A program made the position numbers and the translations under genes. A stretch of DNA of 63,844 bases, counting the filler, from Octopus bimaculoides (Eukaryota): assembly GCF_001194135.2 (NCBI RefSeq). It is 5 parts of 5 records of this genome, joined end to end, with 100 filler letters (N's around TTAATTAATTAA, not from the genome) between each part and the next. Parts side by side here need not be neighbours in the genome. Positions count along the whole stretch, not along the records: positions 1 to 27,004 come from NC_069000.1; positions 27,105 to 46,528 come from NC_068983.1; positions 46,629 to 55,852 come from NC_068981.1; positions 55,953 to 62,635 come from NC_069002.1; 1 more part is not named here. One strand, written 5' to 3'. The notes under the pieces are model-generated. The model ran no database searches. It was not told the DNA's origin and was given only the letters and a program-made list of their open reading frames with translations. Position 1 is the stretch's first letter. Each line of letters begins with the position of its first letter. This document shows, one piece after another, positions 4,829-60,919 of the stretch.

Positions 4829-4876
4829 GTCTTACAGCTGTTTCCAGGATATTTATTATATCTCTTCATCGGAGAC
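4829..4876 (-). ncRNA. Type I hammerhead ribozyme-like motif (one core substitution)
   Basis: Minus strand: GTCT-CCGATGA-AGAGATAT aataa ATATCCTG-GAAA-CAGCTG-TA-AGAC. Stem I GUCU/AGAC is perfect and stem III is palindromic; the core is CCGAUGA rather than CUGAUGA. Confidence 0.7.
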
Positions 4877-5459
4877 GGTGTGAGAGGATGATTAAGCAAT
4901 AGTTAGTTTAGTTAAGATAAGAAATATAGAGTGAATGTAGGGATATTGTATTTGTAAATCCATTGTTTAGGCAGAATGGTATACATATAAGATTCCAATA
5001 CCTTGTGAGTAAAGTCCAATCGGTTTTAAGATTGGTCGTTGGCTATGTAAATCCATTATTAATATTCCAATACCCTATGAGTAAAATCCTACAGTCATTG
5101 AAATTGGTCATTCCACATACAGAGTTTATGCGCAGTGTTATTGAATCAAGGATTCTGTTTATTGAATCAAGGGTTCACTTTAAACAGAACCCTGATGGGT
5201 CTTGATGGGTCGTGTTAGACACAGCGCACACTGCTGCAAAGGAGATTATATCCACTGACAGATTTTCGATGCGTTCAAATATCACATAAACCGCACCTCA
5301 AGTTTTTCATGAAAGTTAGGCCTTGAAATACTCCAAACGGACGCATAGCATGTTGCTTAGTCGAATTAGCCCAGCATTTGCTCTACAAATGTTTTCTTGT
5401 CAATGCTGCACTTTCCCATATTACCTGTTTCAACATAACTGTAATATATTATATACCGT

Positions 5460-5765
5460 GGAGGCGCAATGGTCCAGTGGTTAGAGCAGCGGACTCGCGG
5501 TCATAGGATCGCGCTTTCGATTCCCAGACCGGACGTTGTGAGTGTTTATTGAGCGAAAACACCTAAAGCTCCACGAGGCTCCGGCAGGGGATGGTGGCGA
5601 ACCCTACTGTACTCTTCCACCACAACTTTCTCTCACCCTTGCTTCCTGTTTCTGTTGTGCCTGTAATTCAAAGGGTCAGACTTGTCACACTGTGTCACGC
5701 TGAATATCCCCGAGAACTACGTTAAGGGTACACGTGTCTGCGGAGTGCTCAGCCATATGCATGTT
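5460..5765 (+). mobile_element. tRNA-derived SINE, Octopus OK-type
   Basis: tRNA-like head with A box (tggtccagtgg) and B box (tttcgattcc); body nearly identical to 22702-23053; cut by an N gap. Family name from recall. Confidence 0.85.
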
Positions 5766-6964
5766 NNNNNNNNNNNNNNNNNNNNNNNNNNNNNNNNNNN
5801 NNNNNNNNNNNNNNNNNNNNNNNNNNNNNNNNNNNNNNNNNNNNNNNNNNNNNNNNNNNNNNNNNNNNNNNNNNNNNNNNNNNNNNNNNNNNNNNNNNNN
5901 NNNNNNNNNNNNNNNNNNNNNNNNNNNNNNNNNNNNNNNNNNNNNNNNNNNNNNNNNNNNNNNNNNNNNNNNNNNNNNNNNNNNNNNNNNNNNNNNNNNN
6001 NNNNNNNNNNNNNNNNNNNNNNNNNNNNNNNNNNNNNNNNNNNNNNNNNNNNNNNNNNNNNNNNNNNNNNNNNNNNNNNNNNNNNNNNNNNNNNNNNNNN
6101 NNNNNNNNNNNNNNNNNNNNNNNNNNNNNNNNNNNNNNNNNNNNNNNNNNNNNNNNNNNNNNNNNNNNNNNNNNNNNNNNNNNNNNNNNNNNNNNNNNNN
6201 NNNNNNNNNNNNNNNNNNNNNNNNNNNNNNNNNNNNNNNNNNNNNNNNNATATATATATATATATATATATATAAAAGATAAACAAGAGTGAAAAAACTA
6301 CAGAATACACATACACGTATACTTAAGCATACACACCATAACTATCACAAATATATCTACTTATATGCATATACACATACAAACACGCAGATATGTGAGT
6401 GGATATACACTGTATAGTGTGATTGTTCGTGTACGTGTGTGTGTTTGCATGTATTTACATTCGTTCTTACATATTGACATATATAAAAACGAACGTTAAT
6501 TAAAGTCAAACATTACTAAATGCACCGATCTACAGTGGCACTCACACGTTTTATTTTAAGTTTGAGAGAAAAGATACCAAAAACTCACCTTAATTCCATT
6601 CCTGATGGAGAGAAATAGGTAAATGTGTCCAAATATGTATGTATTCTTATGTGTGGGTGTATGCGTGTTTGCATGTTTTTTTTTTGTTTATGTGCATGCG
6701 CGTGTGTGTGTCAGTGTACATCTATATGTAATACTTAAAAGTAATATTAATAGGGCTAAACGTTGCAGCCAGACGGTGTGGTCATGCTAGGACCCACCAT
6801 TAGATTTATTCTTCCATTACGTACATATTTCCCTCTCCAGGATTATGTCTGGTGAAAGAGCAATCGGACAGGGGTACAATTCCGCTCTTCTTTGTTTTTC
6901 CTATGGATGTATGCACAAGACACCACTCTTTGTGTGTGTGTGTGTGTGTGTGNNNNNNNNNNAT

Positions 6965-58879: not shown

Positions 58880-59070
58880 GAAGGAGCTTAGTCCATTATA
58901 TTGGTCCATTGCCTAACTGGTACTTATTTACCGAGACCGAAAGAGAGGAAAGCAAATCAACATCGGTTGAATCTGAAGTCAAAATGTAAAGCCGGACGGA
59001 ATGCCACTAAGCATTTCGTTATCCGTTTTAACGATTCTACCAGCTCACCGCACTAGCAATCGAACACTTG
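58880..59070 (-). mobile_element. Old Meta-domain-type SINE
   Basis: aactggtacttattt...gaaagcaaatcaacatcgg...ttaacgattctaccagctcaccgc matches the reverse complement of 37393-37560. Confidence 0.7.
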
Positions 59071-60829
59071 TGACTATCTAACGTTTCTGCATCCCCCATA
59101 GTAAAATATCAGTTTAGAACATAAACCCGGACGACATGCAAAAGATTCTCTCTGCACACCACGTTAAATTACCCATAAATCTGAAAGAGACGAATTCAGC
59201 ACGGATGCAAAAACACTAAAGAATGCACAACCTGACAAAATCTTCATGTTAACAAGTGTGGAAGCTTCTTGCGAATGCATTATATATTTATGTATAATAA
59301 AAGGCATAACGAATAAAACGATATAAAACAATCCTGATGGATTGAAACTAAATAGGACATTTATATGGTCCTTCAAATTTATTTAAAATGGACACTTTCA
59401 GAAAGCGAATGAAAATAAAGGGTGGTGGGTGAGTCTTTAGTAAAGGCTGTGAGTAAGGCAAGTAAAACTAATAATGAAGTTAGACAGCTTTAACTATATT
59501 CAGAAGAAATGTGAACTAGAACGCCATAACCCAAAATATCATGGAATTGAGATTTGATTTTCACTTAGCAGTTCGACATCTATGGTTTCTTTATTTTAAA
59601 AATTGCGATCATTAATACCAAGTCATATGCAATTTGATGCGTATATTGCTCTTACGGATGTATATATGTCACAATTGCATCAGAACTGAATTAAGGTGCT
59701 TCTGCTGTAGAACGATTCTATTTTAAGTTGCAGGTAAATGGAGTTTCGTATTCGAAAATTGTTAGGAAACCCGTCGTACAAATGTATGTGTATCAGATTC
59801 GTACCTGTGTGTGATCAGCCACCACTGATCGTTTAATCAACCGTAGTTCTTTTATTTATGTCTACGTAACCTAGCGCATCAACAAAAGGAATTAATAGAA
59901 TCAAGAGAAAACGCAAAGAAATAAATAGTCGATCAATATGTTCAACTAAATCCACCGCTCTGACCAATGTCCTAAGATGTCCAAAGTGTACTGATAGAAA
60001 GAAATGTAGGAAGAGACGAACATATAAAATATGAGCAAATCATTTAATGAACAAGATGACGGCTCTAATTACTGAAAAAAGTAAAAATCAGCAATAAAAA
60101 ATATCTGTAAAACCTACAGACAATTATAAGCCATGTTCTGCCCTGTCGGCAGTTATTGTAAATAAAAGAAATGACTTGGAGATAAGACATAGGTCATGGT
60201 GTGGTTAGAATTTACAATTTTAAGACAAAGAAAAACAAATGCGATGTAGAGAATATGCGTTTTATTATTCTTACTCATTACAAATGTCCTAACTATTGTT
60301 TGGTATAGGTAGCCGTATATTTTCGCCATTTAGCGCTAATTTGAAATTTTTAGTATAACATAACCCTTGGCAGATATGTTCTATTAAAGTAATCATTTTA
60401 CCTGACTGTTGAGAAAGCAATTTTTTTCTTGGCACTTGCTCATAGATCGTTGATAGTTCAGTAAGTGAGAAAGAGAGAAAAATTAACTCATTCAAAGAGA
60501 ATTTCTACTTTGATTAAATGTCCATAAATTTAATTTCTATAACCAACTTGACTACAATACAAACGATTTAGAGAAACTATTTTTGGTGTCATCATTCCGG
60601 GTGTAGATAATATATTTCAGCCATTAAATATTAATCCAGAGTTATTTGTACTTCGTTGGTGTTAGCATATGTGATCGGTATTGTACACCATCTGTTCCAA
60701 GATGAAATTCCGTCACAATCAAATTTTAAATCCAGGGATCTGTTACCTAGTTTAGATTGTATGTTGTTGTTGAATGATACAAAACTAAGACAGAAATAAT
60801 GGGTTACATGCAAGTATTCATTTATCAGA

Positions 60830-60919
60830 GGCTTACAGCTGTTTCAGATCTTCATTTGCGTGGATTCGTGGTTCAGTCATACAAAACATATGGAACCGGC
60901 ACACGGCTTTATCAGAACC
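60830..60919 (-). ncRNA. Hammerhead-like motif with CUGAUAA core variant and long stem II
   Basis: Minus strand: GGTT-CTGATAA-[...GGTTCCATAT gtttt GTATGactGAACC...]-GAAA-CAGCTG-TA-AGCC. Confidence 0.55.

What the first reader, a model, noticed from the sequence alone, without database searches (positions are those of the whole stretch)
4829..60919. A family of self-cleaving hammerhead ribozymes scattered through the window
Seen: six or more independent loci (4829, 12715, 15013, 17933, 40368, 51256, 60830) share the type I order stem I - CUGAUGA - stem II - GAAA - short stem III - UA - stem I'. Each family uses a different palindrome in stem III (CAGCUG, CGGCCG, CAUAUG, AGCGCU), so the palindromic property recurs while the sequence changes. 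Established: hammerheads with palindromic stem III occur in Penelope-like pseudo-LTRs and retrozymes and are thought to cleave as dimers; the window has four PLE coding remnants. Inference: several distinct ribozyme-bearing PLE or non-autonomous derivative families amplified in this genome, some copies may still cleave, and they are likely unannotated. Unusually, several have very long stem II hairpins.
Basis: partly seen in the sequence, partly recalled or inferred. Interest (0 to 1): 0.8.

Follow-up and report, generated by a model that had tools for sequence, protein, structure and literature searches.

The report
Penelope hammerhead fossils with long stems
This stretch of what is likely octopus DNA holds eleven mostly decayed hammerhead-ribozyme motifs that are likely the leftover 3' ends of Penelope-like retrotransposons, a known kind of self-cutting RNA, but several have a much longer second stem than published examples and cutting was not shown.

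Summary
Real, mostly known biology. All seven cited loci are type I hammerhead-shaped motifs, and I found four more (52616, 30722, 54960, 55324). Enrichment is strong: 8 GAAAC-palindrome-GUH half-motifs against 0.4 in shuffles, and 6 of the 8 have an upstream core plus stem I against 12 of 200 control anchors. The host is likely an octopus. One motif (12718) lies 367 nt behind a Penelope-like RT-GIY-YIG remnant. Family B (15091, 17937) is repetitive, densest at the ribozyme and thinning 5'-ward, and shared with a second organism. Locus 51257 has an inverted partial copy, typical of Penelope insertions. Corrections: only 4 of 7 cited loci have exact CUGAUGA; 4 of 11 keep an unmutated core and palindrome; 15091 and 17937 are one family; I confirm two coding remnants, not four. 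RNA reads showed no end pile-up at the cut site (weak test). What is new: helix II spacers of 40-99 nt in 8 of 11 motifs, beyond the 26-nt limit of the published descriptor. The scan noted PLE hammerheads on two other genomes before.

The parts
11590..12351 (+). Penelope-like element remnant: RT core then C-terminal GIY-YIG endonuclease, frameshifted, with stops and an internal deletion of about 220 codons
   Evidence: tblastn with P0001-P0003; PLE profile 24-60 bits; best named relative Octopus sinensis LOC115226989, 71%
12715..12752 (+). Motif A: exact core, 15-nt helix II with U.U at 10.1/11.1, 6-nt palindrome AGCGCU, 3-bp stem I; 367 nt behind the PLE ORF end; predicted cut after 12749
15013..15095 (-). 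Motif B1: exact core, 56-nt helix II (11 of first 14 positions paired in register), palindrome ACGGCCGU, 4-bp stem I; best-preserved copy; predicted cut 3' of 15017
   Evidence: Rfam Hammerhead_1 20.1 bits, below gathering 34, E 0.0097; repetitive family
17933..18015 (+). Motif B2: same family as B1, opposite strand; exact 5' core, palindrome broken by two transitions
14966..15423 (-). Family B 3' end shared with 17608-18064 (+); the two copies point away from each other; family sequence continues to at least 15830 in other copies; no ORF identified upstream
   Evidence: 84% over 460 nt; blank protein searches
52535..52622 (-). Motif B3 (new): distant relative of B with changed stem I (6 bp) and palindrome CGAUCG, core CUGAGGA, 57-nt helix II, GAAG instead of GAAA
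4829..4876 (-). Motif C: core CCGAUGA (U4C), 21-nt helix II, palindrome ACAGCUGU, 4-bp stem I
   Evidence: (z -5.2)
60830..60919 (-). Motif D: core CUGAUAA (G8A with C3 kept), 63-nt helix II spacer, palindrome ACAGCUGU, 4-bp stem I
51254..51319 (+). Motif E: core CUGAUAA, 40-nt spacer, palindrome ACAGCUGU, stem I out of register by 2 nt
51197..51236 (-). Inverted partial copy of E's 3' end, cut off just before GAAA; forms a foldback with E
   Evidence: 93% over 29 nt; z -6.2
40368..40508 (+). Motif F: exact core, 57-nt helix II hairpin, 3' half duplicated in a 59-nt tandem repeat (palindrome broken in the first unit, ACAUAUGU in the second)
   Evidence: z -2.7
30718..30843 (+). Motif G (new): core CCGAUGA (U4C), 99-nt spacer with a paired base (11 of 14), palindrome ACAAUUGU, GUC site, 4-bp stem I
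55320..55386 (+). Motif H (new): core CUGAAGA, 40-nt helix II hairpin, palindrome ACUCGAGU, GUC site, 4-bp stem I
   Evidence: (z -4.2)
54921..54967 (-). Motif K (new): core CUGAGGA, 14-nt helix II, palindrome with one mismatch, 7-bp stem I; 360 nt from H on the opposite strand
50076..50591 (-). Second PLE RT remnant from a different family, no ribozyme linked

Best explanation
The window holds eleven type I hammerhead-shaped motifs with a self-complementary helix III, and they are likely the decayed 3' ends (3' UTR or pseudo-LTR) of about ten old insertions from several Penelope-like retrotransposon families, whose ribozyme would have cut only as a dimer. Shown: the motifs, their excess over chance, one motif just behind an RT-GIY-YIG remnant, the repetitive 3'-weighted profile of family B, and inverted partial copies. 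Inferred: PLE reverse transcription starts at the 3' end and usually stops early, so most insertions keep only the ribozyme and a short tail. In the live elements the 6-8 nt palindrome cannot close helix III alone; two copies in a tandem transcript would pair their palindromes, cut after UH and release a unit-length RNA. Several octopus families extended helix II into a 40-60 nt hairpin, which the core should tolerate. The copies here are fossils: 7 of 11 have core or palindrome lesions and none has an intact same-strand partner, so little or no cleavage is expected from them.
For: Enrichment tests. Stem I and the palindrome change together between families, e.g. B1 versus B3. Palindromes give duplexes of -6.4 to -14.1 kcal/mol and no monomer hairpin. 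Motif A is 367 nt behind the endonuclease end, same strand; its GAAAGCGCUA 3' half matches the shrimp PLE motif in the Fig. S3 text of PMC4209133; 600 contigs (X4) and 730 (X15, another organism label) laid on 861 bases; summed depth peaks at 14999-15056 (about 20,000 and 32,000, single contigs 25-54) and drops about tenfold within 200 nt upstream; about 76-78% of depth at 15080 carries the letter that restores a helix II pair. Inverted 5'-truncated copies and short tails are described PLE hallmarks (PMC8557442 passages) and are seen at E and possibly B1/B2. PLEs are abundant in Octopus vulgaris (PMC13282606 passages).
Against: An ORF link is shown for 1 of 11 motifs; 1.4 kb upstream of B1 gave no protein match. 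Only B1 reached any Rfam hammerhead score, below gathering (none among the 150 of 226 rows shown). Helix II folds better than shuffles in only 3 of 11 copies and the three-sequence B alignment has 1 compensatory pair of 16. No pile-up of RNA ends and no back-joints in 83 and 92 RNA reads. Summed contig depth is not a copy number. No whole genome was held, so families other than B rest on one copy each.
Confidence: 0.8

Rival explanations
1. The long-helix-II families (B, D, F, G, H) are non-autonomous, non-coding elements (retrozyme-like or SINE-like PLE derivatives) that are expressed, cut and possibly circularised, and borrow PLE enzymes.
For: No ORF found in 1.4 kb upstream of B1, which is T-rich on the ribozyme strand. 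Family B relatives are transcribed at a low level (83 and 92 reads). A 2026 preprint argues animal retrozymes derive from PLE pseudo-LTRs (10.64898/2026.07.22.740005, parts 1-2 of 5 read). The non-coding part of this reading is compatible with the best explanation.
Against: No tandem array of ribozyme-bearing units in the window. RNA reads lie on both strands, all but 1 of 175 are under 90% alike, 94-96% run on into unlike sequence, with no back-joints or end pile-ups: this looks like old copies embedded in host transcripts.
Confidence: 0.1
2. In some families the motif is kept as a structure (3'-end recognition or priming signal for the PLE protein) and no longer needs catalysis; U4C and C3.A8 cores would be family traits, not decay.
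For: U4C occurs in 2 unrelated motifs (C, G) and G8A without the compensating U3 in 2 (D, E), of 4 5'-core changes in all; one RNA read group has A6G. PLE hammerheads cleave poorly in vitro and other functions were not excluded (PMC4209133).
Against: Four changes are too few; copies are 10-15% diverged, so such changes are expected from decay; D and E may be one lineage. 7 of 11 motifs keep an exact CUGANGA.
Confidence: 0.07
3. The motifs are chance matches or by-products of foldback repeats in AT-rich DNA.
For: The 13 matches to a similar pattern in metagenome and viral contigs were chance-like: none had both stem I >=3 and stem II >=2. One or two of the weakest window motifs (D, G) could be partly chance.
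Against:: excess far beyond shuffles and beyond non-palindromic anchors of the same window.
Confidence: 0.03

Closest known systems
PLE pseudo-LTR hammerheads with a small palindromic helix III (Cervera and De la Pena 2014, PMC4209133; main text parts 1-2 of 4 and the supplement PDF read)
   Same: Type I order, 3-5 bp stem I, palindromic helix III, optional extra nucleotide before GAAA, many divergent families per genome, mostly solitary copies, pairs on opposite strands 100-700 bp apart, position behind the endonuclease.
   Different: Published spacers between the two core halves reach about 23 nt among the 56 listed examples, and the descriptor allows at most 26 nt and no helix III insert; 8 of 11 motifs here have 40-99 nt. 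No cephalopod is among the listed species.
Dimer-cleaving PLE hammerhead variants (Lunse, Weinberg, Breaker 2017, PMC5785218; not held, seen only as a citation and through review passages in PMC6765202)
   Same: Palindromic short helix III and predicted dimer cleavage.
   Different: Could not be compared; it may already include long-helix-II or cephalopod examples.
Non-LTR retrozymes (PMC7229834, passages; preprint 10.64898/2026.07.22.740005, parts 1-2 of 5)
   Same: Type I hammerheads in non-coding animal repeats, thought to be mobilised by PLEs.
   Different: Retrozymes are tandem units of about 300 bp with canonical helices and abundant circular RNA; here the motifs are solitary, 3'-terminal, with no circles seen.
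Naiad PLE 'HHR_half_core' (Craig et al. 2021, PMC8557442; passages and supplement searches)
   Same: Core halves 35-50 nt apart that escape standard descriptors, reported for an octopus Naiad.
   Different: None of five 3'-half motifs from this window occurs in their consensus file (line breaks could hide a match); no Naiad ORF was identified in the window, and no Naiad profile was available to test it.
Rfam RF00163 Hammerhead_1
   Same: B1 aligns over the whole model.
   Different: 20.1 bits against a gathering score of 34; the long helix II is scored as an insertion.

Membership tests
Type I hammerhead ribozyme | CUGANGA and GAAA cores, A15.1-U16.1 pair and UH site in type I order | tested here: met
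   Order holds in 11 of 11; CUGANGA exact in 7 of 11 (A, B1, B2, B3, F, H, K), GAAA in 10 of 11; whole core plus perfect palindrome in 4 of 11 (A, B1, F, H)
Type I hammerhead ribozyme | Stem I closes around the core | tested here: met
   3-7 bp in 10 of 11, five different pair types at the first position; out of register in E; unbiased test 6 of 8 vs 12 of 200
Type I hammerhead ribozyme | Helix II hairpin, usually closed by G10.1-C11.1 | tested here: inconclusive
   G-C closing pair read directly in B1 and B2 only; others have U.U, A-U or a mismatch or extra nucleotide; z < -2 in 3 of 11
Type I hammerhead ribozyme | Site-specific self-cleavage after H17 | not testable with these tools
   Indirect look only: no pile-up of ends in 175 RNA reads from B relatives, fragmented cDNA libraries, 6% of each run read
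PLE pseudo-LTR hammerhead | Lies in the 3' UTR or pseudo-LTR behind an RT-GIY-YIG ORF | tested here: inconclusive
   Met for A; not shown for the other 10
PLE pseudo-LTR hammerhead | Short palindromic helix III that pairs only between two molecules | tested here: met
   Perfect in 9 of 11 inner palindromes (broken in B2, K); duplex -6.4 to -14.1 kcal/mol, no monomer fold
PLE pseudo-LTR hammerhead | Dispersed multi-copy 3' ends with 5' truncation and inverted partial copies | tested here: met
   Family B depth profile; inverted copy at E and outward-facing B1/B2; tested for B and E only
PLE pseudo-LTR hammerhead | Helix II of up to 7-8 bp with a 3-10 nt loop (published descriptor) | tested here: not met
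   Spacer 14-21 nt in A, C, K; 40-99 nt in the other 8 against a 26-nt limit. This is the variant feature
Non-LTR retrozyme | Tandem repeats with a hammerhead in each unit | tested here: not met
   No such array; F duplicates only the 3' half
Non-LTR retrozyme | Abundant circular RNA | tested here: inconclusive
   No back-joints in 83 and 92 reads for family B; library type not suited
Naiad PLE | N-terminal GIY-YIG before RT | tested here: not met
   The remnant linked to A has RT first, endonuclease last; for the other motifs no ORF was found and no Naiad profile was tested

The most novel reading that the evidence does not exclude
Octopus genomes carry a very large, uncounted population of PLE hammerheads (one per 5 kb here; of the order of 100,000s if this window were typical) belonging to a long-helix-II variant that standard descriptors and Rfam miss, and young families of it still cleave as dimers. 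This would mean that PLE lineages reported as lacking a ribozyme may hold one in an extended or rearranged form.
Probability: 0.3. Interest if true: 0.6.

Novelty: new variant of a known kind. Interest (0 to 1): 0.38.

Why it matters
What the hammerhead does for Penelope-like elements is still open, and counts of these ribozymes depend on descriptors that cap helix II at 7 bp. A long-helix-II form in several independent octopus families shows that those counts miss a class, gives a marker for finding and orienting short non-coding PLE fragments that repeat annotation leaves unclassified, and offers many families with different palindromes for testing whether the palindrome restricts dimer cleavage to members of the same family. 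For the copies in this window the practical meaning is small: they are mostly dead.

Tried and rejected
Whole-window Rfam scan: 226 matches, the 150 shown are microsatellite hits to miRNA models, no hammerhead among them; focused scans of E/J and K/H gave no ribozyme. Pfam on three read-through frames of the PLE remnant: 0 families; on six frames upstream of B1: nothing meaningful. Homolog searches with two plus-strand frames upstream of B1: none of 512 and none of 113 candidates scored (weak evidence, length-limited), so the idea of an antisense ORF there is unsupported. Pattern scans of metagenome and viral contigs: 11 and 2 matches, none with both stems, taken as chance. Search for permuted hammerheads (any order of the three blocks) in the window: only low-scoring hits, no shuffle control run, none pursued. 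Candidate 14705-14741 (-): exact core and 6-bp stem I but non-palindromic helix III, left out. A possible second motif at 12443-12475 lacks a core base, left out. The 116-nt helix II at 40371 is rejected as a duplication effect. No RNA holder was listed for the B stretch, which is no evidence on expression. Not-in-print searches: 'hammerhead ribozymes'+'cephalopod' 0 papers; 'hammerhead'+'Penelope'+'octopus' 5, none on this by listing; 'octopus'+'self-cleaving ribozyme' 3; 'long helix II' 1, on RNA viruses. PMC5785218 and PMC5850863 were not held, and bioRxiv supplements were closed; these may bear on novelty.
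Full report
Setting. The window is AT-rich (32% GC), gapped (5,479 N) and full of microsatellites. A broken reading frame at 11638-11820 has 3 relatives among 13 candidates, the best an Octopus sinensis protein at 71% identity, so the host is likely an octopus. 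No whole genome was held.

The observation. All seven cited positions carry the order stem I, CUGANGA-like core, helix II spacer, GAAA, palindrome, UH, stem I'. I name them A (12718 +), B1 (15091 -), B2 (17937 +), C (4872 -), D (60915 -), E (51257 +), F (40371 +), by the first core base. Four more turned up: G (30722 +) and H (55324 +), K (54960 -), and B3 (52616 -) by similarity to B2. That is 11 motifs in 58,365 called bases. Chance is excluded for the set: the half-motif GAAAC-palindrome-GUH occurs 8 times against 0.40 (max 3) in 300 block-wise dinucleotide shuffles, and 6 of those 8 have a core and at least 3 bp of stem I upstream, against 0 of 6 other palindromic anchors and 12 of 200 non-palindromic anchors in the same window (p about 1e-6). 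The two misses are E, whose stem I is out of register, and E's inverted partial copy. Searches agree; the score was set after seeing the loci. Rfam barely sees them: B1 scores 20.1 bits on Hammerhead_1 (gathering 34); E, H and K score nothing.

State of the copies. CUGANGA is exact in 7 of 11; C and G have U4C, D and E have G8A with C3 kept. B3 has GAAG; B2 and K have broken palindromes. Only A, B1, F (second unit) and H keep core and palindrome whole. A C3-G8 pair and its U3-A8 covariation are described in PMC3088659 (section 8 read), so C3.A8 is expected to be damaging; the same section notes that U.U at 10.1/11.1, seen in A and B3, is tolerated. An extra nucleotide before GAAA, which may apply to C, F, H and K, is allowed in the published descriptor.

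Helix II. Spacers are 14, 15 and 21 nt (K, A, C) and 40, 40, 56, 56, 57, 57, 63 and 99 nt (E, H, B1, B2, B3, F, D, G). F's apparent 116 nt comes from a 59-nt tandem duplication. On their own only C, H and F fold better than shuffles (z -5.2, -4.2, -2.7); B3 is -1.6 and the other seven lie between -1.1 and +1.1. In fixed register B1, B2 and G each pair at 11 of the first 14 positions, and other genomic copies mostly carry the letter at 15080 that restores a B1 pair (76% and 78% of depth in X4 and X15; 185 further rows were not shown). B1/B2 and B3 keep the same spacer length while stem I and the palindrome both change in a paired way, but the three-sequence consensus fold has only 1 compensatory pair of 16. 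I read the long helix II as real for families B, F and H and unproven for D, E and G.

Link to Penelope-like elements. tblastn and a profile from 130 of 153 fetched PLE proteins find an RT-then-GIY-YIG remnant at 11590-12351 (+), an RT remnant at 50076-50591 (-), and a marginal hit at 50-196 (-). The profile covers one clade, so other PLE types could be missed; four remnants are not confirmed. Motif A lies 367 nt behind the first remnant's end on the same strand, the published position. For family B, 600 and 730 contigs from two organism labels were laid on 14970-15830; summed depth peaks over the ribozyme's 3' half and tail and falls about tenfold within 200 nt upstream, as expected of 5'-truncated retroelements; depth is not a copy number, but it points to hundreds of copies. 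B1 and B2 face outward 2.6 kb apart and are 84% alike; E has a 29-40 nt inverted copy of its 3' end, and a SINE later landed in its tail with a 14-nt duplication. Inverted 5'-truncated copies and 30-40 bp tails are listed PLE features (PMC8557442 passages). Against: 1.4 kb upstream of B1 matches no protein, so family B may be non-autonomous or have a long UTR.

Mechanism. Shown: each intact palindrome gives an intermolecular duplex (-6.4 to -14.1 kcal/mol) and no monomer hairpin. From the literature: such PLE motifs do not cleave as monomers and cleave weakly as dimers, and are proposed to release the element from tandem transcripts (PMC4209133; PMC6765202 passages). Inferred: the ancestors of these motifs worked that way, and the long helix II is a tolerated extension. 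For the present copies cleavage is unlikely: most are mutated, none has a complete same-strand neighbour, and E's foldback would hide its cut site. Two RNA runs of the same species label gave 83 and 92 reads on family B, all but one under 90% alike to B1, on both strands, mostly running on into unlike sequence, with no pile-up of ends and no back-joints. This fits old copies inside host transcripts, but it is a weak test: fragmented libraries, 6% of each run, one family.

Comparison and novelty. The kind is known since 2014 and reported in other molluscs (Lottia, Crassostrea in the Fig. S3 text). The difference is the spacer: about 23 nt at most among the 56 listed examples and 26 nt in the descriptor, 7-17 nt in the core-only search of PMC8557442, against 40-99 nt in 8 of 11 motifs here. 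My searches found no paper on cephalopod hammerheads, but the most relevant paper (PMC5785218) was not held. If the window were typical, a 2.8 Gb octopus genome (size from PMC13282606) would hold some 500,000 such fossils; the window was picked for this feature, so that is an upper guess. Two earlier scan notes reached a PLE-hammerhead reading on other genomes; none covers this genome or sequence.

Verdict. Genuine PLE-type hammerhead motifs, mostly fossil, with a modestly new long-helix-II form. New variant of a known kind; interest 0.38.

Noticed in passing
Outside the window: 3' ends of the Naiad_Obim and Naiad_Ovul consensus sequences in the supplement of PMC8557442: Read by eye, both hold the three hammerhead blocks in the order site, GAAA, CUGAUGA (the non-circular type SGC of PMC10085705, section 13 read), with a 6-bp stem I, a 5-bp stem III and a 2-bp stem II starting G-C. 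The paper lists Naiad_Ovul only as 'HHR_half_core' and says Naiads lack canonical hammerheads. 'octopus' and 'Naiad' do not occur in PMC10085705 or its supplement, and one search found no other paper.
   Followed up: partly
window 51709-51937: 230-bp inverted repeat (70% alike arms) whose two arms end in the same CGGCCGUAAUG-like tail as family B but have no GAAA or CUGANGA; may be a decayed inverted PLE pair or another structured repeat (no Rfam ribozyme).
   Followed up: partly
window 40225-40356: Near-perfect 130-nt hairpin (z -10.7) ending 12 nt upstream of motif F's stem I; could be a foldback at the truncation point of the insertion.
   Followed up: partly
window 51318-51324, 51216-51222 (-) and 60822-60828 (-): The tails of E, its inverted copy and D each carry a second core-like 7-mer 2-5 nt after the predicted cut site; unexplained.
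   Followed up: no
window 7199-7463, 26164-26374, 30204-30454, 30907-31130, 37240-37622, 46222-46442, 51335-51567, 53732-53829, 58881-59051: At least two abundant SINE-like repeat families of about 200 bp, 70-91% alike between copies.
   Followed up: no
window 3417-3695 with 10462-10817, and 7774-8446 with 13089-13601: Two further dispersed repeats (73-80% alike); the frames at 3400-4200 look like a decayed transposase by eye (print-out).
   Followed up: no
window 52738-52889 and 53531-53682; 18403-18571 and 19176-19344: Pairs of long inverted repeats (90-92%) bounding about 950 bp, MITE-like; the first sits just upstream of motif B3.
   Followed up: no
window 63299-63499: Short telomere-like GGTTAG repeats in inverted arrangement.
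   Followed up: no
window 16567-16629 and 16808-16870: Identical inverted 63-mers on both sides of an N gap, probably an assembly artefact.
   Followed up: no
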